Positions 1 through 32,486 of a stretch of DNA of 64,000 nucleotides are shown here, one piece after another. This DNA comes from Candidatus Woesearchaeota archaeon (lineage in GTDB: Archaea; Nanobdellota; Nanobdellia; Woesearchaeales; JAFGPW01). The notes below the pieces were generated by a model. The model was given only the letters and a program-made list of their open reading frames with translations, did not search any database and was not told the DNA's origin. The DNA lies in NCBI GenBank assembly GCA_016935985.1, contig JAFGPW010000006.1, forward strand, positions 89,047 through 153,046, in the 5' to 3' direction. A program made the translations under genes and the position numbers. Numbering within the stretch: the stretch's first letter is position 1; every line of letters begins with the position of its first letter.

Positions 1-807
1 CCAGCCGCCGATACTGCCGTCGGAGGCCACCACACGGTGACATGGCACGACCGGCGCGCAGGGATTGCGCTTCATAGCCATCCCGACCGCACGATAGGCG
101 GACATCCCCATGCTGCGGGCGATATCGGCATAGGTCGTCACCTTCCCTTCAGGGACCGAGAAGCAGCGCTGCGCCACTGCGTGATGGAACGGCCGGAGGA
201 GCGCCATCTCGAGGTAGCCGAGGACCTGGCCGAAGCTCCGATCGTCCGGCGCGCCGATATACTGTCTGGCGAGCGAACGCACTATGCGCGCATCGACCGT
301 CCGCCCCATACGCTCCCAGACGGCTTCCAGGTTCCCTGACGCGACGAACTGGCAGAACTGGGTGACATTATGGGCCCTGAGCCGCAGGGCGCACCGCTCG
401 AAGTCTATGAGCACCGCATTGCCGCGGGGGGTCACGATGACGTGCCTCGTCGGATGGTGCATCTCCTCTTTCTGGAGGCCTGCGCGATCGAGGGCGTAGC
501 ACTGCGCGAAGACGTCCTGCAGCAGGCCGAGCGCCTTGCGCGGCGTCGCCGACTTGAGCCGGGGCACTATCTCCGTGCCTTCGACGAACGCCATCACGAG
601 CTCAGCGCCGTCGTACGATATGAACCGTGGGCCGATGCCGAGGCTGTTCACCCGCTGCAGCATCGCCGCCTCATGCGCGATCCTTCCCACCGCCCTGCTC
701 TCCGGCCGGGCGCGCTTGATCGCGACCTTATTCCCATCGAGCATGCCTACTTCCACGATGCCGCGCTTCCCGCGCGCGAACGGCCGTCTCTTGGTTATCG
801 CGCTCAT
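1..807 (-). CDS. ogt: Partial (3' end beyond window edge) fusion protein: N-terminal protein-kinase-like domain (Bud32/RIO/Kdo-kinase-like) + C-terminal O6-alkylguanine-DNA alkyltransferase (MGMT/Ogt) DNA-binding/active-site domain
   Basis: Manual reverse-strand translation of 1-807 gives one uninterrupted frame: MSAITKRRPFARGKRGIVEVGMLDGNKVAIKRA...VLIDFERCAL...FHHAVAQRCFSVPEGKVTTYADIARSMGMSAYRAVGMAMKRNPCAPVVPCHRVVASDGSIGGW. The PCHRV active-site motif and the TYGDIA/NP helix-turn-helix motifs of MGMT are present; the N-terminal part has a Gly-rich loop, a VAIK lysine and a DFG-like DFE. ATG at 805-807 overlaps the stop of the upstream gene (ATGA). The six-frame track does not list it because it runs off the edge. 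Confidence 0.6.
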   Translation of the reverse strand, partial: MSAITKRRPFARGKRGIVEVGMLDGNKVAIKRARPESRAVGRIAHEAAMLQRVNSLGIGPRFISYDGAELVMAFVEGTEIVPRLKSATPRKALGLLQDVFAQCYALDRAGLQKEEMHHPTRHVIVTPRGNAVLIDFERCALRLRAHNVTQFCQFVASGNLEAVWERMGRTVDARIVRSLARQYIGAPDDRSFGQVLGYLEMALLRPFHHAVAQRCFSVPEGKVTTYADIARSMGMSAYRAVGMAMKRNPCAPVVPCHRVVASDGSIGGW

Positions 808-1727
808 CGTCTCCGTACCGACAGAATTTCGGTTCCGTACACGAACGAATCGATCGACCCGTAGAGGAAGTCGGGGATGCCGTCCATCTCGAAATACCCC
901 GCCACCGGGATGCCCTTATAGGCCACGAACATGCCCCTTTTCACCTCGGCGAGGAGCTTTTTATCGAACTCGAACGCGTAGTAGGTGAGCTCGCCCTCCT
1001 GCTTGACCATCGGATGGACGAGGGCGCGCGTCTTCTTGCCGATGACCATGAAACCGGAGAAATCCGGGTCGCCGAGCAGCCTGAAGAGCGCCGAGAAAGG
1101 GTCATACCGACGCTGGTCGCCGCGCGAGAAGACATAGGAGGTGTCTTTCGGCGAGCCGCCGGGCCTCGGGACACGCTCTTCGATCACCACCGTATCGCCG
1201 CTCGCGTTGAAACTGTATCTCCTGAACCCGTCATCCCGCTCGCCGTTCTCGAGATGGATGTTCTCTGAGAAGCTGACCGGATAGCCGTGGCTGTCAAGAA
1301 GTGCCTCATACCGGTACTCGTCGAGATCGGAGAAAGCGTCGATGACCGCCGCAAGGTCGGTGACCCCGGCGGTGACGGTCCTGGTCCCAGCATCGTAGCG
1401 GAGGCTCGCGGTGCCGAGCCTGACATTCCCGAGCAGGCTGATGATCGGGATGCTCCCCTTGAGCGCATAGGTGGCGGTGAACGGTGTGTAGGGGAATCCC
1501 TCGACACGGTCGAGGACAGCGAGGTCGAGGGAGCCGAGATCATCCTCGATCATCCCGAGCCGGTCTTCGAGACCAGGAAGGAATAAGACCTGCCGCTCGT
1601 GCTGCGCCTCGAACCGCTGCTGCGGCAGCATGCCCGTCCTCGGCCCATCCTGTCCTGCGGCGTTGCCGGCAAGGCCGAGCAGGAGCGCCATCACGACCGC
1701 CTTTCTCGATAGGCCCATCATCCCCAC
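804..1727 (-). CDS. Secreted hypothetical protein (N-terminal signal peptide)
   Basis: 307-aa ORF with an N-terminal hydrophobic signal (MGMMGLSRKAVVMALLLGLAGNAAGQ). The body is non-repetitive and not a GC-shadow; no recognisable catalytic motif. Confidence 0.5.
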   Translation of the reverse strand: MGMMGLSRKAVVMALLLGLAGNAAGQDGPRTGMLPQQRFEAQHERQVLFLPGLEDRLGMIEDDLGSLDLAVLDRVEGFPYTPFTATYALKGSIPIISLLGNVRLGTASLRYDAGTRTVTAGVTDLAAVIDAFSDLDEYRYEALLDSHGYPVSFSENIHLENGERDDGFRRYSFNASGDTVVIEERVPRPGGSPKDTSYVFSRGDQRRYDPFSALFRLLGDPDFSGFMVIGKKTRALVHPMVKQEGELTYYAFEFDKKLLAEVKRGMFVAYKGIPVAGYFEMDGIPDFLYGSIDSFVYGTEILSVRRR

Positions 1728-2260
1728 CTGAGCGCGTAGACGTAGAGCCGCTCGAAATCGAGCGCCTGCTCGCGCAGCAGCTCTGCGGAATACCCTTCCT
1801 GCGCCATGATCGCCTCGACCACTTCCTTCCCGGTACGGGACGAGAAGAGCAGCAGCACTCTGCCATCAGGGTTGAGGTGGCGCTTCGCGCCCATGAGGAA
1901 CCGCTCGATCAGCTCATGGCCCCTCAGCCCGCCGTCGAGCGCGATGTCCTTCGCACGCGGGTCGTCAGGCAGGTACGGCGGATTGAAGACGATGAGGTCG
2001 AACCTGCCCTTGATGTCCGCGAAGAGATCGGACTCGATCCAGGTTATCTTCGGCAGCCGCAGACGCTTTCCGAGGACGATCGCTTGGGGGTTGATGTCTG
2101 CTGCGACCACCTCGTCCGCATACCTGGCCGATTCCCTGGCAAGGACGCCAGAGCCAGTGCCCATGTCGAGAACCCTGCCCCTGGCGTACGGCCTGATGCA
2201 CTGCAGCAGCAGGTAGGAATCCTCCCGCGGCTCATAGACCGGATGCCCCTCATCTGCCAT
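1718..2260 (-). CDS. HemK/Mtq2-family protein (release factor glutamine) N5-methyltransferase, small MTase domain
   Basis: NPPY motif (FNPPYLPDD), SAM motif I (VLDMGTGSGVLA) and VYEPREDSYLL, typical of archaeal Mtq2/PrmC-like enzymes. Start placed at MADEGHPVYEP, ~25 nt downstream of the bidirectional TATA at 2283-2296. Confidence 0.7.
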   Translation of the reverse strand: MADEGHPVYEPREDSYLLLQCIRPYARGRVLDMGTGSGVLARESARYADEVVAADINPQAIVLGKRLRLPKITWIESDLFADIKGRFDLIVFNPPYLPDDPRAKDIALDGGLRGHELIERFLMGAKRHLNPDGRVLLLFSSRTGKEVVEAIMAQEGYSAELLREQALDFERLYVYALRWG

Positions 2261-2282
2261 GCAGGGGCGGCAAATAAGCAAA

Positions 2283-2296
2283 ATTTATAAATATAG
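2283..2296. promoter_or_regulatory. Palindromic TATA element (aaatttataaatat) serving divergent genes at 2260 (-) and 2325 (+)
   Basis: AT-rich TATA box centred ~25-35 nt from both start codons in an otherwise GC-rich context. Confidence 0.5.
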
Positions 2297-2324
2297 TGTG
2301 CTCGACAGCGGTCAGGGGGAGGTC

Positions 2325-2588
2325 ATGGAGCTGGATGCTGTCCAGGACAGTGGAAAGAAGGTTTCTCAGTTCGCGAGCCAGGAGGAGTTCGACGCCTATA
2401 TCAGGAAGCTCCCCTTCACCAAGAAGTGCATGCTCATAACCGGGACCGTGGTCGCGCTGTGCTCTGACTGCACCCACCGCTGCGTCTACCGGGGGGATGA
2501 GACCTACACGCTCAGGTACGGCAAGCTCCCCGAGTGCAAGCGGGAGAACATGCTCCGGCTCAAGCGCATCCTCGGCGAACGGAAGTGA
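2325..2588 (+). CDS. Small Cys-containing hypothetical protein (CxxC...C, possible Zn-binding)
   Basis: ATG at 2325 preceded by a GGGGGAGGT Shine-Dalgarno-like sequence; 87 aa containing CSDCTHRC. The longer ORF start at 2259 lies inside the TATA region. Confidence 0.4.
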   Translation: MELDAVQDSGKKVSQFASQEEFDAYIRKLPFTKKCMLITGTVVALCSDCTHRCVYRGDETYTLRYGKLPECKRENMLRLKRILGERK

Positions 2589-2594
2589 CGACGT

Positions 2595-3020
2595 TCAGGT
2601 CACGAACGAGGTCGAGCCGCCGATCTCGAGCCGCCCTTGCGCGCAGCCCCCTTCTTCTGCGAGGAGCACCACGACCCTGAACTCCTTCTGGCTGTCTGCT
2701 ATGGTGTCGGCGTCCCAGACATAGCCGATGACCTCGAACCCTTGGGTGTCCCTGGGAAGGATCTCGGTGTCGAAGACGACGTTGAGGTTGCCGGTGAGGC
2801 CGGGCCGCGATATCTTCCAGAACTCGTCGGAATAGATGTTCGCGACCGTGCACGGCGCGCTTCCGGTGTTCGTGATCTCGAGATATATCGGGAATTCCCT
2901 GAACTGGGAGACATTGAAGGAACCAAGGTATTCAAGCTTGGTGACCTCGAGCCTGCCTTCCCCACAGCCCGCTACAAAGGGAAGGAGGATCAGCATGAGC
3001 ATTATCGGAAGCGGACGCAT
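2595..3020 (-). CDS. Small lipoprotein (lipobox LPFVAGC)
   Basis: N-terminal MRPLPIMLMLILLPFVAGC signal with lipobox cysteine; 141 aa. Confidence 0.5.
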   Translation of the reverse strand: MRPLPIMLMLILLPFVAGCGEGRLEVTKLEYLGSFNVSQFREFPIYLEITNTGSAPCTVANIYSDEFWKISRPGLTGNLNVVFDTEILPRDTQGFEVIGYVWDADTIADSQKEFRVVVLLAEEGGCAQGRLEIGGSTSFVT

Positions 3021-3263
3021 CAGCGAACCTCGCCCATATCTTGGGCATAATGCCTATTTAATACTTGCTACATATATGCCATGCCGGGCTTCGCCTCACC
3101 TTTATATATGAGAAGCGATTCTCATGATCACAGCATGCTAATCGCACGCGGAACGGACGCTGGTTCTATCATCATTATCCGGTGAGAGCCCCTTTCTCAG
3201 GGCTCCTGCAGCGAAACATTTAAAGGGCAGCATCCGCTCGCGTGGAAGGCAGAAGGGACAACC

Positions 3264-6200
3264 ATGGCAGAAGGCTACGACCCGCAGGAGATCGAGGCCG
3301 GCATCCTCAGGCACTGGAGGAAGGAGCAGACCTATCAGAAGGCCAAGGACCGGGGGAAGGGCAAGCCGCAGTGGTACTTCCTCGACGGCCCGCCCTACAC
3401 CTCAGGGAAGGTGCATATCGGCACCGCCTGGAACAAGTCCCTCAAGGACGCGATCCTGCGCTACAAGCGCATGAAGGGGCTCGACGTCTGGGACCGGGCG
3501 GGCTACGACATGCACGGCCTCCCCACTGAGAACGCCACGCTGCGCAAGCTTGGCATAGAGACCAAGGAGGAGGTCGAGCGTTTAGGGGTGCCGCGGTTCA
3601 TCGGGGAATGCAAGCGGCTCTGCGTCGAGAACATGCTCCTCATGAACGAGGACTTCCAGCGCCTCGGCGTCTGGATGGACTTCGAGGGCGCCTACCAATC
3701 CATCAGCAAGGAATTCATGGAGGGCGAGTGGTGGCTGATCAGGAAGGCGCACGAGAACGGCCGGCTGTACGAGGGCCTTCGCACCATGACCTGGTGCCCG
3801 ATATCCGAGTCCGCGCTCGCCAAGCACGAGCTCGAGTACAGGACCGTCGAGGACGACTCCATCTTCGTCAAGATGCTGATCGAGGGCACCGAGGATGAGT
3901 ACCTCGTCATCTGGACGACGACGCCGTGGACGATCCCGTTCAACCTCGCCATCATGGCAGGCCCTGACATCGACTATGTCAAGGTCAAGGTCGAAGGCAC
4001 CGGCGAGAAGTGGGTAGTCGCGAGCAAGCTCATCGGCGTCTTCATGGGAGGCGTCGTCGACAGGAAGTACGAGGTTGTCGAGGAGATGAAAGGGACCGAC
4101 CTCGAGGGCTTGCGGTACGTGCACCCCTTCTATGAGGACCTCAGGAATGTCTACGACCCGATCATCACGGCATCGAAGAAGGCCTTCTCCGTGCTGCTCT
4201 CGAGCGAGTACGTCGACACGAGCGCCGGCACCGGTCTCGTCCACTGCGCGCCCGGCTGCGGGCCCGAGGACTATGAGATAGGGTACCGGAACGGCATCCC
4301 CGCCTTCAACACGATCGACACGAAGGGCGTCTTCCCGGAGGAGATGGGCCCGTTCGCCGGGTGGACCGCGAAGAAGGACGACCCTAGGTTCATCGAGCAC
4401 CTGGAGAGGAAAGGAGCGCTCATCGCGACCACCAGGGTCGAGCACGAGTACGCGCACGACTGGCGGCACCACAAGCCCGTCATCTTCAGGACGACCAAGC
4501 AGTGGTTCTTCAGGATAGAGGACCTGAAGGAGAAGATGATCGCGGCGAACAAGGATATATCCTGGGTCCCGGAGAGCGCGTTCAACGCCTTCGAGTCGTG
4601 GCTCACGAACCTGCGCGACAACTCGATATCGAAGCAGCGGTACTGGGGGACGCCCTTGCCGATTTGGCGGAACGAGGACGACCCCGACGATTACATCGTG
4701 GTGGGATCGGCAGCAGAGCTCGAGAGGCTGTCAGGCACGAAGGTCGACGACCTCCACATACCTGCGGTCGATCCTGTCATCATCAGGAAGGGGAAGAGGA
4801 CCTACCGCCGCGTGCCTGACATCCTCGACGTCTGGGTCGACGCAGGAACGGTCTCATGGAACTGCCTCGACTTCCCGCACCGGAAAGACCTCTTCGAGCG
4901 GCTCTTCCCGGCGGACTTCATCCTCGAGGGGAAAGACCAGTTCAGGGGATGGTTCAACCTGCTCCTCGTCGCCTCAATGGTCTCGATGGAGCGGCCGTCG
5001 TTCAGGAATGTCTATGTCCACGGATTCGTCCAGGACGCGCAGGGGCGGAAGATGAGCAAGTCACTCGGGAATTACATCCTGCCGAGCGAGGTGGTGGACA
5101 CGTATGGCGCCGACGCGTTCAGGTACTACACGATCGGCGGCAGCAAGGCAGGGATAGACCTCAACTACAACTTCGACGACCTGCGCATCAAGCAGCGCAA
5201 CCTCGGCATCCTCTGGAACCTCTCCCGCTTCGTGATCGACTATGCAGCACAGCTCGGCAAGAATCCTCTCGATCTCGACAGAGGGCTCCTGGAGAAAGAT
5301 CTCGGGACCGAGGAGCGCCACATGCTCTCGCGCATGCACTCCGCGATTCGGAAGGCGGGCGATCTCTTTGAGCAGTACCGCATCGACGAGGTCCCAGCCG
5401 TCGTCGAGGATCTCTTCCTCGAGCTCTCGCGCGGCTACATCCAGTTCGTCCGCGAGAAGGCGCAAGGTGACGACGGGAACGAGCAGGAGCTGGTGCTCCA
5501 CACCATATTCTCCGTGCTCGACACCGCGCTCACGCTCTTCGCGCCGATCGCGCCCTTCATCACCGAGCGGATATTCCTCAACCTCAAGGGGCTATTCGGG
5601 CTCCCGGGGAAGAGCGTCCACCTGCGCGCCTGGCCTGAGGCGGACGTCGCGCGAATCGACCGGGCGCTGGAGAAGGAGATGGCGATCGCCGAGGAGGTCA
5701 TCCAGTCGGCGCTCAACGCGCGCGAGCGCGCGAACCTCGGGGTCAGATGGCCGGCAAAAGAGCTCGTGCTCACGACGACCGACAGGGGGATCATCGCCGC
5801 TGTCGAGCGGATGCGCGACCTTATCAAGGGCCAGGTGAACGCGAAAGACATCACCATCGTCCCGTCGTTTCACGCGGTGCGTCTCTCGGTGCGGCCTGAC
5901 TACAGGCAGATCGGGCCCGACTTCGGCGAGCGAGCGCCGCGGATCATCGCGAAGCTCGCGTCAGAGTCGGCAGCGACCATCCTCTCCCATATCGAGCGCG
6001 AGCGCAAGCACCTCATGCGGGTAGACGGCGAGGAGGTGGCGATCGTGAAGGAGCACCTCATCGTCGAACGCACGGTCGACGACCGGTATGTGGAGAGCCC
6101 GACGCGGCATGGCTTCGTCTACCTCGACACCCTGCGCGACGACGAGCTCGACGGGGAGGGCTTCGCGCGCGAGATCATGCGCAGGACCCAGGCGCTCCGG

Positions 6201-13658: not shown

Positions 13659-14663
13659 TCAATCCCTCTTTTTATCTCGTTTGATTTCTTTTAGTATGAT
13701 GTTCGGAAAGTAGGAATATTTATAGATTTTGATTGCCTTGTAGTAGAAGAAGGACCTGACCTTTTTAGGGAAGAGTGCGCGAATCTCCTCGATGAGGGCG
13801 TAGAACGCGCTTTGGCTTTCCAGCTCGCAGTCGAACTCGAAGTCGCTCCCTCCAATCGTGACGTCGCGATACAGGATGTGCGGGTGCTCGACGATGAACC
13901 GGTCGAGCGCAGGGATGATGCTCGGATCCTCGAGCAGCAGGTCGACCTTGTAGTATTCGAGACCGAGCTCGTGGAAGTTGATTATCGCCCGGTAGGCGAC
14001 GATAACCTTGGATTTCTCTAGCCGCTTGAGCCGGTATTTGATGGTATTGATGGGCGTGTCAAGGCGTTTCGAAAACTCGACGAGCGATATCCGAGCCTCT
14101 GTTGATATCTCTTTGAGGATCCTGATATCGGTGTCATCATAGTCGAAGATCTCATGGCTTCCTGTCGACAATGCGGTTTGGTCATGGAGCTTCACGTCGA
14201 CGAGGTAATTATGGAAGTACTGGATGAAATCGGAGAAGACGCTGAAATGCTTGTCGATGACATACTCCCGGTATTGTCCGAGAAAGGCCTCGTAGGTCTT
14301 CTGGTATGCGCGGAGATCCTTGACCAGGAGGCCGATAGCGAGCTCATAATGCCCGTCGGTATGGTAGGCGATTATCACCGAGTCCTGGTCCATCAGATAG
14401 TCCAGCATATCCTCCTCAATCTCAGCGGTCGTATTCTGGAGCTTGATGTAGAGGCGGACTAACTGGTAGCCGAGCTTGGTGAAATCGATGAGGGTGATAT
14501 AGCCGGTGATGACTCCCTTTTTTTCCAACTGGGCGATCCGATACCGCACCACATCCCGATTGAGCCGGGTTATCGAGGCAAGCTCGTTGACCGACCGCCT
14601 GCAGTTGCGGTCGAGTTCGAATAGGATACGTTTGTCTTTTTGGTCTATTTTTGTCATTATCAC
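13659..14663 (-). CDS. lrp: Lrp/AsnC-family transcription regulator, tandem duplicated (two HTH_AsnC + RAM modules)
   Basis: Two repeats of the KDxxILxxLxxNxRxSxxELAxxxxLxxxxVxxRIxxLEKxGVI pattern (residues ~5-60 and ~170-225). Confidence 0.8.
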   Translation of the reverse strand: MIMTKIDQKDKRILFELDRNCRRSVNELASITRLNRDVVRYRIAQLEKKGVITGYITLIDFTKLGYQLVRLYIKLQNTTAEIEEDMLDYLMDQDSVIIAYHTDGHYELAIGLLVKDLRAYQKTYEAFLGQYREYVIDKHFSVFSDFIQYFHNYLVDVKLHDQTALSTGSHEIFDYDDTDIRILKEISTEARISLVEFSKRLDTPINTIKYRLKRLEKSKVIVAYRAIINFHELGLEYYKVDLLLEDPSIIPALDRFIVEHPHILYRDVTIGGSDFEFDCELESQSAFYALIEEIRALFPKKVRSFFYYKAIKIYKYSYFPNIILKEIKRDKKRD

Positions 14664-14757
14664 TTAATAAATAAAGATACTATTTAAATATTTCGCAATA
14701 TTAAGTAAAAATTAATGATAAAATATATATTTCTATAAGTCTCTATATAGTAGTAAT
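14664..14757. promoter_or_regulatory. AT-rich divergent promoter/operator region between lrp and the alaE-like gene
   Basis: ~95 nt of >80% AT (taaataaagatactatttaaatatt...ataaaatatatatttctataag) in a ~63% GC genome; multiple TATA-like elements on both strands. Confidence 0.5.
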
Positions 14758-15282
14758 ATGTTGGACGACCTGATACATAGGATCCATGAAAAATATGCTT
14801 TGGTAAGGAACGCGCTTCACGACAAAGAATCCCGCACTTACACCGGCCTGATCGACACCCTGGGAAATGTAACATTTTCCCTCGCAGTCGGCAGCCTCCT
14901 CGACTATTCTTCGGGTCTGGACTGGCGGGGGATTGTAGGGTCAAGGGCTTCAGCGAGCGCGCTCAACACGACCACGGGCGGTCTCTACGGCGGCTGGAGG
15001 GACTACATATTCAGAATCACAAGGACGACCGAGAAGAGCCATTGGCTCAGGAACCGTGGCGCCGACCTGCTCGCGTTCAACACATTCCAGGTGCCGGTCT
15101 ACGCAGTCGCCCTCAGCGTCGGCAGTCTCGTCCAGGAAGGCGAGTTCGATTATTATAAGGTGCTTGAGGGCTGCAAGAACCTCGCCGTTATCTCGCCGCT
15201 CATCGCGCCGACCATGGGCATGTATATGAATCGCGTGAGGAAGTGGTTCGGCGTCAGCACGCCTGAGCAACGGGCAGAATGA
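14758..15282 (+). CDS. AlaE-like L-alanine exporter family membrane protein
   Basis: RDYIFRITR...WLRNRGADLLAFNTFQVPVYAVALSVG aligns by eye with E. coli AlaE (YgaW) RDLFMRAARK...WIKNLADILAYVTFQSPVYVAIL. Confidence 0.55.
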   Translation: MLDDLIHRIHEKYALVRNALHDKESRTYTGLIDTLGNVTFSLAVGSLLDYSSGLDWRGIVGSRASASALNTTTGGLYGGWRDYIFRITRTTEKSHWLRNRGADLLAFNTFQVPVYAVALSVGSLVQEGEFDYYKVLEGCKNLAVISPLIAPTMGMYMNRVRKWFGVSTPEQRAE

Positions 15283-15435
15283 TCACTTCAGGACATGGCC
15301 GCAGGTGTTGCAGACATGGGCCATCTTCTCCTCGTCGAAGGTGGTCGTGATGCCGTACTCTATCTTGGACTCGCACTTCGGGCAATGGGGCTCCAAGTGC
15401 TGCACAGAGTTGAAGAAATTGAACTCCCCGACCAT
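15283..15435 (-). CDS. Small zinc-ribbon protein (50 aa; CPKC...CNTC)
   Basis: Manual translation: MVGEFNFFNSVQHLEPHCPKCESKIEYGITTTFDEEKMAHVCNTCGHVLK*. Below the track's size cut-off; replaces the shadow ORFs 15254-15523(-) and 15295-15498(+). Confidence 0.45.
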   Translation of the reverse strand: MVGEFNFFNSVQHLEPHCPKCESKIEYGITTTFDEEKMAHVCNTCGHVLK

Positions 15436-15537
15436 GTCTCCGAACCCATAGACTATCCACTATATCGTTTAGTAAGGAAAAGGGGGATTCAAGTATAAAT
15501 ACTTTTCGGAAAAAAAACCGCACGAGCCACCCACGGT

Positions 15538-15550
15538 AGTTTTATATACG
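15538..15550 (+). promoter_or_regulatory. TATA box (gttttatatacg) upstream of the polB-like gene
   Basis: Located ~25 nt upstream of ATG 15572. Confidence 0.45.
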
Positions 15551-15571
15551 CAGCCAGCCACCCATCCCTCG

Positions 15572-18073
15572 ATGCCGCAGATAACCTTCTTCCTGATAGA
15601 CCTCTTCTACAAGGTGATAGCCGGAAGGCCGACCGTCGTCCTCTATGGCAAGACCCCCCGGCGGGCGCCCATCCTCGTCCATGACACGAGCTTCGAGCCG
15701 TACCTGCTCGCGCGGATCCATCCCTCGAGCTACAACGATTTCGTCGCCAGGGTGAAGAAGCTCGCCTGGACCGAAGAGGAGCGGCGCTATGCGGTGACGA
15801 GGACCGAGCTCGTGAAGCGGAAGGTCGACGGCTACGCGATGCAGCTCATCAAGGTGCACGGCAATGTCCCGAAGGCGGTGGGGCTCATCAAGAACGAGAT
15901 ACAGGGATGGGATATCGTGCAGTCGGTCTACGAGCACGACGTCTCGCTCAAGCGGAGCTATCTCATCGACAAGGGCATCTTCCCGCTCCGGCAGGTGACC
16001 GCGTCCGGCGACTTCATCAGGACCAGGAGCAAGGTGCAGGCATTCCAGGCGGTCAGGGTGGAGCCTGCCGGCGACGAATTCTACCCCGACCCGTCGATCC
16101 TCGCGATGGATGTCGGCACCATGCTGCAGGCAGAGCAGCAGGCGCTCGGGACCGAGAACCCGATCGTGCTCATCTCACTCTACAGCGAAGGGTACCGCAA
16201 GGTGATCACCTGGAAGCGGCACGAGAACGCGAAGGACTATGTCGAGTTCGTGGGGAGCGAGCACGACCTGATCATGCGGTTCAAGGACCTCATCGACCGA
16301 CTGCGGCCTGACATCCTCGTCGGCTTCCATTCCGACATGTTCGACCTGCCGTACCTCATCGCGCGCGCCAGGAAATACAGCATCCGGCTCGACATCGGCA
16401 TCGAATTCTCCCCACCCAGGGTCAGGAAGAACCCGCGGAGCGTGATGATCGCGGGCATCAACCACATCGATCTCGCGAACCTCGGCCGCGGCCTCTATCC
16501 CGAGCTGCTCGGCCTCGAGGAGTTCGACCTCGAGAGCGTCAGGCGCGTGCTCCTGAAGGCCGAGCCGCCGGAGACTGGCCAGAGAGTCCTCGTCAAGGAT
16601 GCGCCCGCCCCTGAGACCAACGCCGCTTCGCTCTGCGCGAAGGAGCACGAGCACGCGCGGCTGATATTCACCCTCAGCCACCGGCTCATGCCCTACCTCT
16701 TCGAGGTGGTGCGCCTCGTCGGCTTTACTCCCTACTCGGTCGCGAAGATGAACACGAGCATGATCGTCGAAGCGTACCTCATGCGCCAGACCCGCCAGTA
16801 CGACGAGGTCATCCTCAGGCGGCCGGGCAGGGGCCTGATCGAGCAGCGGTCAGGGACCGGCGTCCGGACGACCGTCCTCAAGGAGGCTGAGGAGGGGATC
16901 TCAAGCCAGGTCGCGCTCGTCTCCTACGCGAGCAGCTATCCCCATATCATCATCGAGCACAACATCTCCATGGGCGCGCTCAGGTGCCATTGCTGCAGGC
17001 GCGACGACCGGATGGTGCCTGACCTTGAGGAGGAGACCTGGTTCTGCCAGAACCGCCGCGGCTTCATCCCGCACGTGGTGCAGGCGCTCCTCTCGCGGCT
17101 CGAGACGATCGAGGCGATCATCGCGTCGGGCAGGAGCTCTGACCTGCTGCGGATACGGAAGGCGACGATCGAGCAGCTGCTCGCGAGCTCGCACATGGCA
17201 TTCTCCCATACCCATGCGAGATGGTATTCCTACCACTGCGCCCAGGCGGTGCACCGCTACGCGGCGTTCTACACGACGCATATCAGGAAGCGTCTCGAGG
17301 AGAAGGGCATCAGGGTTCTCTACGCGACCGAGTCGCAGCTGCACGTGTCGCTCGAGGGCAGCGGCCTCAACTGGCTCAGGCTCGCGCTCGAGGGGGCTGA
17401 GAGGAGCTACCCCCGCGTGCTCGTCTCGTCCCTTGCAGGACCGTACCTCAAGGCCCTCTACCGGACCGAGAAGGAGGGCGACCGGACGAGGACCGGCTAC
17501 GCGCTCATGGACGACGACGGCACGCTCACGCTCTCCGGCCTCGGGCCCCAGACGCGCACGCTTCCGCCGATCGCAAGGCTCGCCCTGGAGCAGGTCATCT
17601 CCATCCTCTTCAGGCAGGCTGACCGCGAGAAGGCGGCGACCTACATCCGCACGCTCATCAAGCAAGTGAGACAGAAGACCGTGCCTAAGGAGCTGATGAC
17701 GATCACGACGGCGCTCTCGAAGGACATCGACGAGTACGACACCGTCGCCCCGCACGTCGCGGTGGCGAAGCGGATGCGCAGCATCGGAATCCCGGTCGAG
17801 GCCGGGCACACGATCAGCTATATCGTCACCGCAGGCCCTGACAAGGTAGGCCAGCGCGCCCGACTGCCCAGCGAGGTCGCTCCCGGCGGCTATGACCCTG
17901 AGTATTATATCGAGAGCCACATCCTCCCCGCGATCGAGCCGATCCTCGGCATCGTCGGCATGACCCGCGAGGACCTCGAGCTCGACCGCGAGCAGGCGAC
18001 GCTCGGCTCGTTCGTCGAGGGTGAGGGGGAAGGGGATAGGGGAGAAAAGAGGGGGACGGGAAGGGATCCCTAG
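15572..18073 (+). CDS. polB: Family B DNA polymerase homologue with catalytic motifs disrupted (predicted inactivated PolB derivative)
   Basis: 833 aa with PolB architecture: Exo II FDLPYL retained; Exo I FDIET replaced by AMDVGT; motif A DxxSLYPSII replaced by LVSYASSYPHII (Asp lost); motif C YGDTDS replaced by YATESQ (both Asp lost). Confidence 0.8.
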   Translation: MPQITFFLIDLFYKVIAGRPTVVLYGKTPRRAPILVHDTSFEPYLLARIHPSSYNDFVARVKKLAWTEEERRYAVTRTELVKRKVDGYAMQLIKVHGNVPKAVGLIKNEIQGWDIVQSVYEHDVSLKRSYLIDKGIFPLRQVTASGDFIRTRSKVQAFQAVRVEPAGDEFYPDPSILAMDVGTMLQAEQQALGTENPIVLISLYSEGYRKVITWKRHENAKDYVEFVGSEHDLIMRFKDLIDRLRPDILVGFHSDMFDLPYLIARARKYSIRLDIGIEFSPPRVRKNPRSVMIAGINHIDLANLGRGLYPELLGLEEFDLESVRRVLLKAEPPETGQRVLVKDAPAPETNAASLCAKEHEHARLIFTLSHRLMPYLFEVVRLVGFTPYSVAKMNTSMIVEAYLMRQTRQYDEVILRRPGRGLIEQRSGTGVRTTVLKEAEEGISSQVALVSYASSYPHIIIEHNISMGALRCHCCRRDDRMVPDLEEETWFCQNRRGFIPHVVQALLSRLETIEAIIASGRSSDLLRIRKATIEQLLASSHMAFSHTHARWYSYHCAQAVHRYAAFYTTHIRKRLEEKGIRVLYATESQLHVSLEGSGLNWLRLALEGAERSYPRVLVSSLAGPYLKALYRTEKEGDRTRTGYALMDDDGTLTLSGLGPQTRTLPPIARLALEQVISILFRQADREKAATYIRTLIKQVRQKTVPKELMTITTALSKDIDEYDTVAPHVAVAKRMRSIGIPVEAGHTISYIVTAGPDKVGQRARLPSEVAPGGYDPEYYIESHILPAIEPILGIVGMTREDLELDREQATLGSFVEGEGEGDRGEKRGTGRDP

Positions 18074-23824: not shown

Positions 23825-25257
23825 CTGCTCAGGTCGACGAAGACGAACTGCTCGTCATAGGTATTGCTGAACACGGCATCGTAGAGTGTGTAGGGCTCGC
23901 CTGCCCGATCGTTCAGGGCGACGTTGTAATGCAACCGGAGCGTCATCTTCCCGGTCTGCTCTGCAGTCTCGAGCGAGAAATCTATGGGGACATCGACGAC
24001 AATCGTCTCCCGCAAGGTGTCGAGAGTGTTTCCGTTAAAGAGGTCCTTCTTGCCGAGCAGCTCCTCACCGTCGACCAGCTCGATTCGGGTCACTTCGAGC
24101 GGACCGACGAAGTTGTCCCGTATCCCCGACAGCTGGATGGATATCGAGACGCTGTCCTCTCCGACGTGGATTGGCTTTTGCGCGTTCAACTCGGTAATGA
24201 GCTGGTACTCGTCGGCAGAATCTGTATAGAGGAGCTTAGTTTCTGATCGAGTATCGTCCCGAATCCGTTTGACGCAGCTGTTCGAAACGCAACGCCATTC
24301 GAGATGGTCCGAGTAGTCCCCCTCGCAGGTGCCGCAGTCGACCGCACAGGAGCACTTGTTCTCCGTGCTCTCGCACTCGAGGTTCCCGCAGATGCCGGGA
24401 ATCGGCGTGTGGATGCAGAGGAGCTTACCCTCGACGCATTCGTCTTCGGTGGCGTCATTACCGTCATCGCAGAAATCAGAGGCGCAGGCATAGGGTGTCG
24501 TCGGTTTCAGGAAGATGACGTTTGGAAGCTTTAGGTCCCGGCTTGCGGAAAGGGGGTCATACGCAGCCCGGTTGGGCTTGATCTTCCCGTAGTCAACAGA
24601 AACGCGGATCGTGAGATCTCCCGTCGTTTCGATAGAGGAGAAGGCGCGGTCCTTGAGAATAATGCTCTTGGAATATCCATCCCCACGACGCTCGAGCAAC
24701 AGATTCAGGGGGATAGTCGCGAGGGTCTCTTCGACACCATCGATGGTCGTCGTCAGTTCTATCGATGTGATCGTGATGTCGTTCGCATAATCCAGGTTCC
24801 TGTCTGATATATAGGTTATACTCGAAAGTTCAACGGTAAGGTTGAGATAGTTAGAGAACAGGTTGAAGGGGTTCGCATACCCTGCGGTGACCTTCAGCTC
24901 GAATCCCTCAAATTGCATCTTGGTCGCTACTTGTTCCTTATCGATGAGGTCCTTCACGATGTCCATGACACATTCGTCATTGACGCATAGCGTCTGGAAA
25001 TAGCGGCTCTCACTCACGCCTTCGCACGCTCCCACGTCCTCGGGGCAGCTGCACTTGGTCTCGTTCCTGTCGATGAGGCCGTTGCCGCAGCAGTTAAGGA
25101 GGGGCGAATAGGTGCAGATGCCCTTCACGCACTTGACGGTGTGGCAGGTCTTCTGGACGCAGTCGGCGTTCTGCTCGCATTCCGCCGGCCCGCAGCCGGC
25201 GAGGAGCAGGAGAACGGCCAGGGAGAATGCCAGGAGCGGGTATCTGATTGCCATCAC
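23821..25257 (-). CDS. Cys-rich secreted lipoprotein with internal duplication ([Cys-rich module + ~190-aa beta-rich domain] x2)
   Basis: Lipobox LLLAGC. Two homologous Cys-rich modules each ending KCSC...C..CEG (residues ~22-78 and ~266-322). 4-nt overlap with the downstream gene. Confidence 0.5.
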   Translation of the reverse strand: MMAIRYPLLAFSLAVLLLLAGCGPAECEQNADCVQKTCHTVKCVKGICTYSPLLNCCGNGLIDRNETKCSCPEDVGACEGVSESRYFQTLCVNDECVMDIVKDLIDKEQVATKMQFEGFELKVTAGYANPFNLFSNYLNLTVELSSITYISDRNLDYANDITITSIELTTTIDGVEETLATIPLNLLLERRGDGYSKSIILKDRAFSSIETTGDLTIRVSVDYGKIKPNRAAYDPLSASRDLKLPNVIFLKPTTPYACASDFCDDGNDATEDECVEGKLLCIHTPIPGICGNLECESTENKCSCAVDCGTCEGDYSDHLEWRCVSNSCVKRIRDDTRSETKLLYTDSADEYQLITELNAQKPIHVGEDSVSISIQLSGIRDNFVGPLEVTRIELVDGEELLGKKDLFNGNTLDTLRETIVVDVPIDFSLETAEQTGKMTLRLHYNVALNDRAGEPYTLYDAVFSNTYDEQFVFVDLSR

Positions 25258-25327
25258 AATCCCTTTTGAGGAAGAGAGGTATAAAAAGGTATCGGAATGA
25301 AAAGAGAAGAAAGGGAGGGGAAACCCC

Positions 25328-25549
25328 TCACTTGATGATCTCGTACTCCTTCACGATGAGCATCATGAAGAGTATGAGCACGATCGCGCCCGCGACCATG
25401 AACGAGAGCCCGCGGAGCACCTCGGTCGTCGTGCCGTTGACCATGACCCACATGCCGAAGGCCATGATGGCGAGCCCGAGCCAGAGGAACTTGTCGAGCA
25501 CCAGCTTCATGATCTCGAACTCTTCCGCCTGGGTTAAGCGTTTCTTCAT
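25328..25549 (-). CDS. Small membrane protein (2 TM)
   Basis: Coding-like part begins at MKKRLTQAEEFEIMKLV (ATG 25547-25549), 12 nt after the stop of the upstream gene; two hydrophobic helices. Confidence 0.35.
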   Translation of the reverse strand: MKKRLTQAEEFEIMKLVLDKFLWLGLAIMAFGMWVMVNGTTTEVLRGLSFMVAGAIVLILFMMLIVKEYEIIK

Positions 25550-25560
25550 GACGACCACCT

Positions 25561-26052
25561 TTAGGAAACCTGGACGACTATCTGCTTGGTCAGGCCTCCG
25601 CCGGCACCGATGGTGCACACCGACGATCCTGAACCGGTCATGTCAGCTGCCTCGACTACGACCTTGAAGCTTCTGAACGCTTCAGCAGGCACGGTCTGCG
25701 CAATGCCCGTGATAGGACTAGCAGGAGTTGCGGTAACGACTCCGCCCGTAGCGCATACGATCTGAGGAGTCATCGTTTGGTTTGATGTCGCGTCATTATA
25801 GATGTTCACTGGGATGACGCAGTCCTTGTTCTGGCTGCATTTAATCGTGTCAGAATAGACCACGACCGGCTCGTCCGCCGTCGCAGGGATGTTCGGCGGC
25901 TCGACCTCGAGCTTACCTTGCAGTTTCCCGAACATGCCTTTCGTGAACGCCAGGCCAAGACCGAGCATGGTGATGCCCAGCACCAGGACGACGATCGCGT
26001 TGACGGAAAGCTGGAGCGAACCGTCCTTGTTCCTTGCGAAAAACCTCATCAC
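25561..26052 (-). CDS. Signal-anchored / pilin-like secreted protein with 4 Cys (paralogue of 23204-23824)
   Basis: N-terminus RNKDGSLQLSVNAIVVLVLGITMLGLGLAFT shares the [RK]..LSV..VV.LVL...GLG..F pattern with 23204-23824. Confidence 0.45.
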   Translation of the reverse strand: MMRFFARNKDGSLQLSVNAIVVLVLGITMLGLGLAFTKGMFGKLQGKLEVEPPNIPATADEPVVVYSDTIKCSQNKDCVIPVNIYNDATSNQTMTPQIVCATGGVVTATPASPITGIAQTVPAEAFRSFKVVVEAADMTGSGSSVCTIGAGGGLTKQIVVQVS

Positions 26053-32340: not shown

Positions 32341-32484
32341 ATGGGGGTACTTCAGCAGTGCCCTGACTGCGGCGGGACGGTGAAGAGGATCGACACCATC
32401 CGTTCCCTCAGCATCGACTATGACGTGTACCTGTGCGGCATCTGCGGCAGGCGCCATGTCAGGGTCAGCAGGTTCAAGGAGTGA
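32341..32484 (+). CDS. Small zinc-ribbon protein (47 aa; CPDC...CGIC)
   Basis: Manual translation MGVLQQCPDCGGTVKRIDTIRSLSIDYDVYLCGICGRRHVRVSRFKE*; TATA (taatttattatac) at 32302-32316; stop 3 nt before the next ATG. Confidence 0.4.
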   Translation: MGVLQQCPDCGGTVKRIDTIRSLSIDYDVYLCGICGRRHVRVSRFKE

Positions 32485-32486
32485 CG

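What the first reader, a model, noticed from the sequence alone, without database searches (positions are those of the whole stretch)
1..807. Kinase-like domain fused to an Ogt/MGMT C-terminal domain; kinase catalytic loop appears degenerate
The reverse strand of 1-807 encodes a continuous frame that is absent from the ORF track because it runs off the edge. It has a Bud32/RIO/Kdo-kinase-like N-terminal half (Gly-rich loop, VAIK lysine, DFE). This runs directly into the MGMT helix-turn-helix and PCHRV active-site region, without the usual MGMT N-terminal domain. The kinase catalytic loop reads MHHPTRHVIV where HGDLHPGNI is expected, that is, the catalytic Asp is missing, which suggests a pseudokinase scaffold. 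Replacement of the Ogt N-domain by a kinase fold is unusual.
Basis: seen in the sequence. Interest (0 to 1): 0.5.

Follow-up and report, generated by a model that had tools for sequence, protein, structure and literature searches.

The report
ArkI-type RNA kinase fused to MGMT
A Woesearchaeota gene joins a small kinase domain, related to the archaeal tRNA 2'-kinase ArkI, to the catalytic half of the DNA-repair protein MGMT; the kinase's odd catalytic loop is a strictly conserved family trait rather than decay, and the public annotation misses the kinase half.

Summary
The reverse strand of 1-807 is an open 269-codon frame. An independent assembly extends it to a 301-aa protein. Residues 206-301 are a complete MGMT/Ogt C-terminal domain with the Tyr, Arg finger, Asn and PCHRV cysteine, and there is no Ogt N-domain.

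The "degenerate" loop is misregistered. The HRD-equivalent triplet is K113-E114-E115. K-x-E-M-x-x-P-x-K-H is nearly invariant in 160 family representatives (E115 160/160), and all ATP- and metal-binding residues are kept. ArkI itself is active with HGQ at this site. A pseudokinase is therefore not supported.

The fusion recurs in 11 other protein clusters. In 42 related loci the MGMT domain is a separate ~105-aa gene directly downstream of the kinase. About 60% of family members carry an Mtq2/HemK2 methyltransferase fused at the N-terminus; here that methyltransferase is two genes upstream, and Trm112 lies nearby. Biochemical function is inferred, not shown. I rate it a new variant of a known kind, of moderate interest.

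The parts
1..807 (-). Residues 1-269 of a 301-aa ORF (ArkI-like kinase fused to MGMT C-domain). The last 32 codons lie beyond the window edge.
   Evidence: Open frame. Full length recovered from L145:3127-4032, identical in the overlap. Homologues reach E 1e-54.
208..801 (-). ArkI/COG2112-family kinase domain, residues 3-200
760..777 (-). Gly-rich (P-) loop A11-R-G-K-R-G16
   Evidence: G13 in 160/160 and R15 in 156/160 family representatives. It aligns with TkArkI K32/G33, which are essential.
715..717 (-). K31, the VAIK lysine. It pairs with E46 (nt 670-672).
   Evidence: Both are 160/160. They correspond to TkArkI K51 and E65.
442..471 (-). Catalytic loop K113-E-E-M-H-H-P-T-R-H122. K113-E114-E115 occupies the HRD position.
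   Evidence: K113 160/160, E115 160/160, M116 146/160, P119 159/160, position 121 K 155/160 (R here), H122 133/160. It aligns to TkArkI H130-G-Q132...K137-H.
397..405 (-). Metal-binding D135-F-E137, which is DFE as in ArkI
   Evidence: D135 160/160. TkArkI D149A is inactive.
358..369 (-). N147-V-T-Q150, the subdomain IX motif
   Evidence: N147 160/160 and T149 153/160. Corresponds to TkArkI N160/T162.
253..261 (-). Y183-I-G, the position of the ArkI YKR motif. The Lys and Arg are missing in this protein.
   Evidence: Y183 160/160; position 184 is K in 126/160 but I here.
205..207 (-). Met201, an in-frame ATG at the domain junction. It is the start of the 101-aa GenBank gene model, and it sits where a separate MGMT gene starts in relatives.
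   Evidence: MBN2567334.1 equals residues 201-301. Junctions in relatives shown.
1..192 (-). MGMT/Ogt C-terminal (alkyl-acceptor, helix-turn-helix) domain, residues 206-269 of 206-301. Y226, R239, N248 and P255-C-H-R-V259 are present.
   Evidence: PF01035. Motif census: Y 55/55, R 50/55, N 55/55, C 55/55 in kinase-linked MGMT modules.
804..1718 (-). Orphan 304-aa ORF with an N-terminal signal-like segment. It lies between the methyltransferase and the kinase-MGMT gene and overlaps both by start/stop codons.
   Evidence: MBN2567335.1. No Pfam or NCBIfam hit. No homologue in 144 related loci.
1718..2260 (-). HemK2/Mtq2-family methyltransferase (NPPY motif), 180 aa. It is the first gene of the apparent operon.
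   Evidence: TIGR00537 128.5 bits against a cutoff of 87. MBN2567336.1. The same domain is fused N-terminally to the kinase in 85+ of 162 family proteins.

Best explanation
This is a real gene of a Candidatus Woesearchaeota genome. It encodes a 301-aa two-domain protein.

Domain 1 (residues ~3-200) is a compact atypical kinase of the ArkI/COG2112 family. The family's characterised member, TkArkI, phosphorylates the 2'-OH of U47 in tRNA.
- This domain belongs to a large, mostly DPANN subfamily whose catalytic loop reads K-x-E-M-x-x-P-x-K-H where ArkI has H-G-Q-I-Q-G-G-K-H.
- All residues that bind ATP and metal are kept: G-loop, K31-E46, D135 of DFE.
- An invariant Glu (E115) sits at the HRD-Asp position.
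- I infer an active ATP-dependent phosphotransferase. Its substrate is most likely RNA (tRNA), engaged by a very basic surface (pI 10.2).

Domain 2 (residues ~206-301) is the catalytic C-terminal half of an O6-alkylguanine alkyltransferase.
- Its nucleotide-flipping Arg, Tyr, Asn hinge and acceptor Cys256 are intact, so it should bind nucleic acid and accept an alkyl group stoichiometrically.
- The kinase domain takes the place of the usual Ogt N-domain and is predicted to pack rigidly against it (pTM 0.89).

The gene ends an operon: Mtq2-like methyltransferase, orphan ORF, kinase-MGMT. It is one realisation of a module that recurs in Woesearchaeota and Nanoarchaeota: [Mtq2/HemK2 methyltransferase]-[ArkI-like kinase]-[MGMT C-domain], variously fused or adjacent, often with Trm112 nearby.

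Shown: domain identities, motif conservation, recurrence of the fusion and the linkage.
Inferred: kinase activity, RNA as substrate, alkyl-transfer activity, and that the modules act on a common nucleic-acid or translation-related target.
For: Identity of the kinase domain:
- Profile against PDB sequences: 8yv5/8yv4 E 1.4e-26, 7vnx TkArkI E 5.7e-18, next best 3e-5.
- hhalign to Thermococcales ArkI: 99.8%, E 7.8e-29, full length.
- The model is confident: pLDDT 92.5, pTM 0.89.

Likely competence:
- Residues equivalent to the TkArkI residues shown essential by mutagenesis (K32, G33, K51, E65, H130, Q132, K137, D149, N160, T162) are R12, G13, K31, E46, K113, E115, R121, D135, N147 and T149. They are 97-100% conserved in 160 representatives, apart from position 12 (K or R in 130/160) and T149 (153/160).
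- 8YV5 has the same loop and is an ATP complex.
- The domain is basic: pI 10.2, net charge +11; the family median is pI 9.8.

MGMT domain:
- PF01035 full length, E 1.1e-24.
- Y, N and PCH are invariant (55/55), R258 54/55 and the Arg finger 50/55, in 55 kinase-linked MGMT modules.

The fusion is real and recurrent:
- Two assemblies are identical.
- There are 11 other kinase-MGMT clusters, one methyltransferase-kinase-MGMT and one methyltransferase-MGMT.
- The fusions are scattered in a rough NJ tree.
- In 42 of 142 related loci the MGMT domain is a separate ~100-120-codon ORF directly downstream.

Methyltransferase link:
- TIGR00537 Mtq2 family, above cutoff.
- Fused to the kinase in 100 of 142 loci.
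- Trm112 lies 1.7 kb downstream here and within 1.2-4.9 kb in 10 other locus entries (9 distinct contigs), nine of them downstream on the same strand.

Family size: 564 representatives at E<1e-30; 315 GTDB species, mostly labelled Woesearchaeota or Nanoarchaeota.
Against: - No biochemical data exist for any member of the K-x-E-M subfamily that I could find. The name 'RNA kinase Ark1' for 8YV4/5 is the depositors' title, and no paper was found.
- The loop differs from ArkI at two residues whose mutation cripples TkArkI: H130 becomes K and Q132 becomes E. Chemistry or substrate may therefore differ.
- This particular protein lacks the Lys and Arg of the YKR motif (YIG). K201A in TkArkI gave a severe loss of activity.
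- Fusion to Mtq2, whose known substrate is a protein (aRF1/eRF1), could point to a protein or ribosome-bound target rather than tRNA.
- About half of related loci have no MGMT gene next to the kinase, so the MGMT link is facultative.
- Part of the linkage may be plain synteny among related genomes: TFB, IleRS and AMP phosphorylase are also conserved neighbours.
- GenBank models only the 101-aa MGMT part.
- Domain packing was judged from pTM only; I had no coordinates.
Confidence: 0.6

Rival explanations
1. Pseudokinase scaffold. The kinase-like domain is catalytically dead and only replaces the structural role of the missing Ogt N-domain, so the protein is simply an Ogt with an odd N-terminus.
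For: - There is no Asp at the HRD position.
- The window protein lacks the K and R of YKR.
- From my own recollection of the MGMT domain literature, not checked here: an isolated C-domain needs the N-domain for stability and activity, so some partner is plausible.
- A high pTM (0.89) suggests tight packing.
Against: - Every ATP- and metal-binding residue and the loop itself are 97-100% conserved across 160 representatives.
- Most family members have no MGMT domain at all: 57 stand alone and more than 85 are fused only to a methyltransferase. A scaffold role for MGMT cannot explain that conservation.
- The same loop occurs in an ATP-bound crystal structure, 8YV5.
- ArkI with Gln at the Asp position is an active kinase.
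Confidence: 0.1
2. Artefactual or mis-modelled fusion. The true state is two genes, a 200-aa kinase and a 101-aa MGMT protein starting at Met201, as in most relatives. A 1-nt sequencing or assembly indel, or simply internal initiation, makes them look fused.
For: - In 42 related loci the MGMT domain is a separate gene whose ATG overlaps the kinase stop (ATGA), in another frame.
- The window has an in-frame Met exactly at that point.
- GenBank annotates only the 101-aa product, MBN2567334.1.
- A single-base indel would be enough to fuse the frames.
Against: - An independent Logan assembly gives the identical sequence, with 0 mismatches in 3933 nt, and calls a 301-aa gene.
- The kinase tail aligns with homologues up to its last residue and continues in frame.
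- In-frame fusions with diverse linkers exist in 11 other clusters.
- With no stop codon, ribosomes translating the kinase must read into MGMT.
- The GenBank model leaves 600 nt of clearly homologous coding sequence unannotated.
Confidence: 0.08
3. Protein kinase or ATPase acting on the translation-termination machinery. The domain phosphorylates a protein (aRF1, Mtq2/Trm112 or the MGMT domain itself), or acts as a RIO/Bud32-style ATPase switch on a ribonucleoprotein. It would not be an RNA 2'-kinase.
For: - It has an ePK-type fold.
- About 60% of members are fused to an Mtq2-family methyltransferase, whose established substrate is the release factor.
- Trm112 is nearby.
- The loop differs from ArkI at H130 and Q132.
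Against: - As in ArkI, the peptide-binding subdomain VIII and activation segment are absent: the domain is ~200 aa, and 171 of 173 residues of 8yv5_B align.
- The domain is highly basic.
- The partner MGMT domain is a nucleic-acid binder.
Confidence: 0.2

Closest known systems
TkArkI (Thermococcus kodakarensis TK2051; PDB 7VNX), the tRNA U47 2'-OH kinase; COG2112 / AQ578 family (PMC9095486)
   Different: - The catalytic loop is K-E-E-M-H-H-P-T-R-H, against H-G-Q-I-Q-G-G-K-H in ArkI, and is one residue longer.
- The G-loop is GKRG rather than GTTS.
- The window protein lacks the K and R of YKR.
- ArkI is a stand-alone protein, mainly of thermophiles. This subfamily is mostly in Woesearchaeota and Nanoarchaeota, and is usually fused to a methyltransferase and sometimes to MGMT.
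- Activity is untested.
Geoglobus acetivorans 'RNA kinase Ark1' (PDB 8YV4; 8YV5 with ATP)
   Different: It is a 175-aa stand-alone protein with a shortened N-lobe, and it is acidic (pI 5.8 against 10.2). No publication was found, so its activity and substrate are known to me only from the entry title.
Ogt/MGMT O6-alkylguanine-DNA alkyltransferases (TIGR00589; archaeal NF041132, NF003022)
   Same: A complete C-terminal domain with the helix-turn-helix, the Tyr, Arg finger, Asn hinge and the PCHRV acceptor cysteine. The equivalent of Glu172 is present by motif (KEAML against the human KEWLL, the latter from memory).
   Different: There is no N-terminal domain (PF02870); an ArkI-like kinase domain sits in its place. 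In relatives the same C-domain is a ~105-aa stand-alone protein encoded directly after the kinase gene.
Alkyltransferase-like (ATL) proteins (E. coli YbaZ, S. pombe Atl1)
   Same: They are small proteins made of the C-domain only that bind alkylated nucleic acid.
   Different: In ATLs the acceptor Cys is replaced by Trp or Ala (from my own knowledge). Here Cys is invariant, 55/55.
Bud32 / RIO / Kdo atypical kinases
   Same: They are small ePK-like folds without an activation segment, and they act on RNA or ribonucleoproteins. Kae1-Bud32 fusions in archaea are an architectural precedent (from my own knowledge).
Bacterial bifunctional PrmC/TrmB (NCBIfam NF002421): a release-factor Gln methyltransferase fused to the tRNA m7G46 methyltransferase
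   Same: It is a parallel fusion logic: a HemK/Mtq2-type methyltransferase joined to an enzyme that, in the characterised relative, modifies the tRNA variable loop (position 46 there, 47 for ArkI).
   Different: The partner enzyme and the domain of life differ. The parallel is an inference from the family name listed, not a tested relationship.

Membership tests
ArkI / COG2112 / AQ578 RNA kinase family | Full-length sequence homology to ArkI | tested here: met
   hhalign 99.8%, E 7.8e-29, positions 2-197 against 23-214. hmmsearch against PDB sequences: 7vnx E 5.7e-18, 8yv5 E 1.4e-26.
ArkI / COG2112 / AQ578 RNA kinase family | Compact two-lobe ePK-like fold of ~200 aa without an activation segment (subdomains VIII and X absent) | tested here: met
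ArkI / COG2112 / AQ578 RNA kinase family | ATP-site residues: P-loop K32/G33, K51, E65; metal-binding D149 in DFE | tested here: met
   The equivalents are R12/G13, K31, E46 and D135-F-E. G13, K31, E46 and D135 are 160/160 in the subfamily.
ArkI / COG2112 / AQ578 RNA kinase family | Catalytic loop H130-G-Q132 ... K137-H | tested here: not met
   The loop is K113-E-E115 ... R121-H122. Only the K/R-H end is shared. The variant loop is itself invariant in the subfamily and is shared with 8YV5.
ArkI / COG2112 / AQ578 RNA kinase family | Subdomain IX N160/T162 and the C-terminal YKR motif | tested here: inconclusive
   N147 and T149 are present. Y183 is present, but the motif reads Y-I-G in this protein. 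Position 184 is K in 126/160 of the subfamily.
ArkI / COG2112 / AQ578 RNA kinase family | ATP-dependent 2'-phosphorylation of tRNA U47 | not testable with these tools
   This needs an enzyme assay and tRNA mass spectrometry.
Ogt/MGMT alkyltransferase | PF01035 / TIGR00589 C-terminal domain above the curated cutoff | tested here: met
   86.5 bits against 27, covering 1-81 of 81. TIGR00589 65.2 bits against 46.4.
Ogt/MGMT alkyltransferase | Acceptor Cys in PCHRV, plus Tyr, Arg finger and Asn hinge | tested here: met
   Y226, R239, N248 and C256. Conserved in 50-55 of 55 kinase-linked modules.
Ogt/MGMT alkyltransferase | N-terminal Ogt domain (PF02870) | tested here: not met
   No PF02870 hit. 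Residues 1-200 are the kinase domain.
Ogt/MGMT alkyltransferase | Stoichiometric alkyl transfer from O6-alkylguanine | not testable with these tools
   This needs a biochemical assay.
ATL (alkyltransferase-like, non-catalytic) | Acceptor Cys replaced by Trp or Ala | tested here: not met
   Cys is present here and in 55/55 related modules.
Bud32 / RIO / Kdo kinases | Significant match to the family profiles; HGD...N catalytic loop | tested here: not met
Pseudokinase | Loss or relaxed conservation of nucleotide-, metal- and catalytic-site residues | tested here: not met
   K31, E46, K113, E115, D135 and N147 are 160/160; P119 159/160; K121 155/160.
HemK2/Mtq2 methyltransferase (neighbour gene 1718-2260) | TIGR00537 above cutoff, NPPY motif, Trm112 partner encoded nearby | tested here: met
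   128.5 bits against 87. NPPY is in the sequence. Trm112 (PF03966) lies 1.7 kb beyond the kinase-MGMT gene. Substrate not testable.

The most novel reading that the evidence does not exclude
The Mtq2-like methyltransferase, the ArkI-like kinase and the MGMT C-domain form one nucleic-acid-directed machine in Woesearchaeota and Nanoarchaeota. The kinase would write an internal RNA 2'-phosphate, or another phosphate mark, on tRNA or rRNA in organisms not known to be thermophiles. The methyltransferase would act on the same substrate. The MGMT domain would serve as an RNA-directed nucleotide-flipping, alkyl-removing module. That would be a role for an MGMT domain outside DNA repair, and a role for ArkI-type phosphorylation outside thermostabilisation.
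Probability: 0.15. Interest if true: 0.8.

Novelty: new variant of a known kind. Interest (0 to 1): 0.55.

Why it matters
- **Reach of ArkI-type kinases.** ArkI-type internal RNA phosphorylation was described in 2022 as mainly a thermophile device for tRNA stability. Here a large sister subfamily appears (564 representatives at E<1e-30; 315 GTDB species) with its own invariant catalytic loop. It sits in Woesearchaeota and Nanoarchaeota, not a lineage of known thermophiles.
- **Unusual partners.** The subfamily is habitually fused to the release-factor-type methyltransferase Mtq2 and repeatedly fused or adjacent to an active-site-intact MGMT C-domain. This "Rosetta-stone" pattern predicts a functional link between RNA or translation-factor modification and alkyl transfer. 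I found no description of it in the searched literature.
- **Testable candidates.** It offers concrete proteins for finding new RNA-phosphorylation substrates.
- **Annotation gap.** Neither Pfam nor NCBIfam has a model for this kinase family. GenBank annotates only the last 101 residues of this gene as "MGMT family protein", which leaves the kinase domain invisible.

Tried and rejected
- **Recovering the source contig through IleRS.** Exact look-up failed twice, and the 304-aa start variant of the neighbour also failed. The 305-aa variant worked.
- **Literature on 8YV4/8YV5 and G. acetivorans Ark1.** Nothing relevant found. A search on Mtq2, Trm112, archaea and kinase found no description of the fusion. 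COG2112 and AQ578 searches returned only the ArkI papers and old kinase surveys.
- **Survey of ArkI diversity.** The profile made from GaArk1 and TkArkI fragments returned almost only Thermococcus proteins. I therefore could not see which loop type the other experimentally confirmed ArkI homologues carry (M. fervens, A. aeolicus, N. viennensis).
- **AFDB fold search.** The library was unavailable.
- **Model coordinates.** These are not exposed, so I could not check whether the kinase cleft and the MGMT pocket face the same surface.
- **Promoter and terminator scan of 1-3300.** Nothing found; the scan is of the bacterial type and uninformative for an archaeon.
- **Orphan ORF 804-1718.** No family and no homologue in related loci.
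- **Second kinase, MGMT or methyltransferase copy in the window.** None found.
- **Glu172-equivalent across the family.** The alignment in that loop is unreliable, so I make no family-wide claim.
Full report
**1. The observation**

The reverse strand of window 1-807 translates without a stop for 269 codons, starting from an ATG at 807-805. That ATG overlaps the TGA of the upstream ORF (ATGA).

- ARGKRG: residues 11-16
- VAIK lysine: K31
- DFE: residues 135-137
- KEEMHHPTRH: residues 113-122
- PCHRV: residues 255-259

Pfam places PF01035, the MGMT C-terminal "DNA_binding_1" domain, on residues 206-268 at E 2.8e-21, and finds no Ogt N-domain. NCBIfam TIGR00589 is above its cutoff.

The frame runs off the window edge. 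A look-up of the neighbouring 305-aa product found an independent Logan assembly, L145 from SRR13394437 (12,330 bp). It is identical to window 1-3933 (0 mismatches) and extends beyond it. The complete product is 301 aa, and PF01035 then covers the whole profile (1-81 of 81, E 1.1e-24).

**2. Source and annotation**

The window's IleRS is 100% identical to a protein of a Candidatus Woesearchaeota MAG, on a contig of 162,994 bp. The two upstream genes are MBN2567336.1 (methyltransferase) and MBN2567335.1 (hypothetical protein).

GenBank models only residues 201-301 of the ORF, as MBN2567334.1, a 101-aa "MGMT family protein" starting at Met201. The 600 nt that encode the kinase-like half are therefore unannotated in GenBank. 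The Logan gene call gives the 301-aa product.

**3. What the N-terminal half is**

No Pfam or NCBIfam family reaches its threshold: APH E 0.0035, Kdo E 0.23, Bud32 E 0.14.

A profile of the domain built from 12 homologues (A2) was searched against PDB sequences. The results:
- 8YV5/8YV4: E 1.4e-26
- 7VNX, TkArkI: E 5.7e-18
- next best, TAK1: E 3e-5

The entry titles identify 8YV4/5 as "G. acetivorans RNA kinase Ark1", with 8YV5 the ATP complex. TkArkI is the archaeal RNA kinase that makes 2'-phosphouridine at tRNA position 47. It belongs to COG2112, the "AQ578" family of atypical kinases (PMC9095486).

Further support:
- Profile-profile comparison with 15 Thermococcales ArkI sequences gives 99.8% probability, E 7.8e-29, over the whole domain.
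- An AlphaFold model built on a 70-sequence alignment is confident: pLDDT 92.5, pTM 0.89.

**4. The catalytic loop**

Ohira et al. report that in TkArkI the HRD triplet is HGQ and DFG is DFE. They also report that K32, G33, K51, E65, H130, Q132, K137, D149, N160, T162 and K201 matter for activity.

The profile alignments map these residues as follows:

| TkArkI | This protein |
|---|---|
| K32 / G33 | R12 / G13 |
| K51 | K31 |
| E65 | E46 |
| H130 | K113 |
| Q132 | E115 |
| K137 | R121 |
| D149 | D135 |
| N160 / T162 | N147 / T149 |
| Y200-K-R | Y183-I-G |

The HRD-equivalent is therefore K113-E114-E115. The Asp position holds a Glu.

In 160 family representatives the counts are:
- K113, E115, K31, E46, G13, D135, N147 and Y183: 160/160
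- P119: 159/160
- K121: 155/160 (R in this protein)
- M116: 146/160
- H122: 133/160

G. acetivorans Ark1 has the same KEEMNHPDRH loop. This is a strictly conserved variant motif, not a decayed one. It is combined with an intact nucleotide- and metal-binding site, and the characterised relative works with Gln at that position. A pseudokinase is not supported.

Two caveats apply. H130 and Q132 are replaced, so the chemistry or the substrate may differ. This particular protein also lacks the Lys and Arg of the YKR motif.

The domain is very basic: pI 10.2, net charge +11. The family median is pI 9.8 and Thermococcales ArkI is 9.45. This is consistent with nucleic-acid binding but does not prove it.

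**5. The MGMT half**

Y226, R239 (the Arg finger), N248 and P255-C-H-R-V259 are present. The KEAML segment matches the position of Glu172 in human KEWLL; the human motif is from my memory.

I collected 55 MGMT modules that are fused to, or lie directly after, a kinase of this family. Among them Tyr, Asn, Pro, Cys and His are 55/55 and the Arg finger is 50/55. It is therefore not an ATL-type protein, which lacks the Cys. It should be a competent alkyl acceptor, though this is untested.

**6. Is the fusion real, and how common is it?**

The exhaustive profile search found 1565 representatives at E ≤ 0.001 and 564 at E < 1e-30.

Architectures among 162 family proteins (the window protein included):

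| Architecture | Count |
|---|---|
| methyltransferase-kinase | 85 (plus 5 variants) |
| kinase alone | 57 |
| kinase-MGMT | 11, plus the window protein |
| methyltransferase-kinase-MGMT | 1 |
| methyltransferase-MGMT | 1 |

In a rough neighbour-joining tree the kinase-MGMT fusions fall in about ten separate places in the leaf order. This suggests repeated fusion or fission; it is an NJ tree on divergent sequences, so only indicative.

A scan of one genome per GTDB species found 315 loci. Most are labelled Woesearchaeota or Nanoarchaeota, and some carry the label "uncultured Methanosarcinales". In the 142 loci analysed:
- the methyltransferase is fused to the kinase in 100
- an MGMT domain is fused in 1
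- an MGMT domain lies directly downstream as a separate ORF in 42
- an MGMT domain is elsewhere in the locus in 14
- no MGMT domain is present in 70

Both locus sets were ranked by a query that includes the MGMT part. These frequencies are therefore biased upward.

In the separate-gene arrangement the MGMT ATG overlaps the kinase stop (ATGA), in another frame. The product is about 100-120 codons. In the window, Met201 sits exactly at that point but in frame. The fusion could therefore have arisen by a 1-nt indel, either evolutionary or artefactual.

Four points argue against an artefact:
- Two assemblies are identical.
- The kinase tail aligns with homologues to its last residue.
- There is no stop codon.
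- Natural in-frame fusions with diverse linkers exist.

Read mapping would settle the question. Even if there were two genes, the module would be the same.

**7. Context**

On the minus strand the order is:
- HemK2/Mtq2-family methyltransferase, 1718-2260 (TIGR00537 128.5 bits against 87; NPPY motif)
- an orphan 304-aa ORF with a signal-like N-terminus, 804-1718
- the kinase-MGMT gene

The genes overlap at their start and stop codons, which suggests one operon. The orphan ORF has no family and no homologue in the related loci.

Beyond the window lie a 115-aa ORF, TFB and a 61-aa Trm112 gene, 1.7 kb downstream on the same strand. Trm112 is the activating partner of Mtq2-type methyltransferases. 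It also lies within 1.2-4.9 kb of the kinase in 10 other locus entries (9 distinct contigs); nine are downstream on the same strand and one is upstream on the opposite strand.

TFB (29 of 81 loci), IleRS (8) and AMP phosphorylase (8) are also recurrent neighbours. Part of the linkage is therefore synteny among relatives. The independent domain fusions are the stronger argument for a functional link.

NCBIfam lists a bacterial bifunctional PrmC/TrmB protein, NF002421. It joins a release-factor methyltransferase to the tRNA m7G46 methyltransferase. This is a suggestive parallel to Mtq2 joined to an ArkI-like enzyme, since ArkI acts at position 47. It is inference only.

**8. Most likely mechanism**

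Shown:
- the domain identities
- the intact and conserved active-site residues in both halves
- the recurrent fusion and adjacency with Mtq2 and MGMT modules

Inferred:
- The kinase domain binds ATP-Mg/Mn through the G-loop, K31-E46 and D135. It transfers phosphate with E115 and K/R121 in the roles of ArkI Q132 and K137.
- By analogy with its only characterised relatives, and given its basic surface, the acceptor is most likely an RNA 2'-OH, probably in tRNA.
- The MGMT domain binds and flips a nucleotide and can accept an alkyl group on Cys256.
- The kinase domain stands in for the missing Ogt N-domain. The high pTM suggests a fixed interface.

My confidence is about 0.9 in the identity claims and about 0.5 in "active RNA kinase". 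The rivals are a protein- or ribonucleoprotein-directed kinase/ATPase (0.2), a pseudokinase scaffold (0.1) and an artefactual fusion (0.08).

**9. Novelty and score**

The two domains are each members of known families. The ArkI fold and its non-canonical loops were described in 2022, and 8YV4/5 shows the K-E-E-M loop type.

What appears new is the architecture and its setting. I found no description of it in the searched literature.
- There is a large DPANN subfamily of ArkI-like kinases with its own invariant loop.
- It is usually fused to Mtq2.
- It is repeatedly fused or adjacent to an MGMT domain that lacks the Ogt N-domain but keeps the cysteine.

I rate this as a new variant of a known kind, with interest 0.55.

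A different and testable question replaces it: what does an ArkI-type kinase do, in a lineage not known for thermophily, next to a release-factor methyltransferase and an alkyltransferase?

Noticed in passing
window 205-807 (-) compared with GenBank MBN2567334.1: The public annotation models only the last 101 residues, from Met201, as 'MGMT family protein'. The 600 nt encoding the ArkI-like kinase domain are left unannotated. Neither Pfam nor NCBIfam has a model for the ArkI/COG2112 family.
   Followed up: yes
window 804-1718 (-): An orphan 304-aa ORF with a hydrophobic, signal-like N-terminus is wedged between the Mtq2-like methyltransferase and the kinase-MGMT gene, overlapping both at start and stop codons. 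It has no Pfam or NCBIfam family and no homologue in 144 related loci, where the methyltransferase and kinase are usually fused or adjacent.
   Followed up: partly
L145:5723-5908 (+) and L145:4483-5421 (-), just beyond the window's left edge: A 61-aa Trm112 gene lies 1.7 kb downstream of the kinase-MGMT gene; Trm112 is the activator of Mtq2-type methyltransferases. A TFB gene sits in between. Trm112 recurs near the kinase in 10 other locus entries, and TFB in 29 of 81.
   Followed up: partly
window 32433-34022 (+): A single 529-aa ORF combines AmmeMemoRadiSam system protein B (MEMO1-like, residues 71-333) and protein A (residues 352-526). NCBIfam models these as two separate families.
   Followed up: no
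whole window compared with L001-L080: Window GC is 61.9%. The 80 related Woesearchaeota/Nanoarchaeota loci have a median of 37.9% (range 27-62%), so the source is an unusually GC-rich member of the group. GC dips locally to 52.5% at 14001-16000 and 55.9% at 24001-26000.
   Followed up: no
window 15572-18073 (+): This family-B DNA polymerase ORF (833 aa) matches the archaeal PolB equivalog models only weakly (117 bits against cutoffs of 570-1289), so it is a divergent polymerase.
   Followed up: no
window 41473-43467 (+) and 48685-50802 (+): The first is a putative S-layer protein of the PACE-CTERM type (119 bits, above cutoff). The second is a 705-aa protein whose C-terminal third resembles ArlJ/FlaJ/UpsF pilus or archaellum membrane proteins.
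   Followed up: no
window 1-64000: ARAGORN finds no tRNA gene in the whole 64 kb.
   Followed up: no
P0274 (G. acetivorans Ark1, PDB 8YV4/5): The closest solved relative is only 175 aa, with a shortened N-lobe, and it is acidic (pI 5.8). The DPANN subfamily is strongly basic (median pI 9.8). This is an odd difference if both bind RNA.
   Followed up: no
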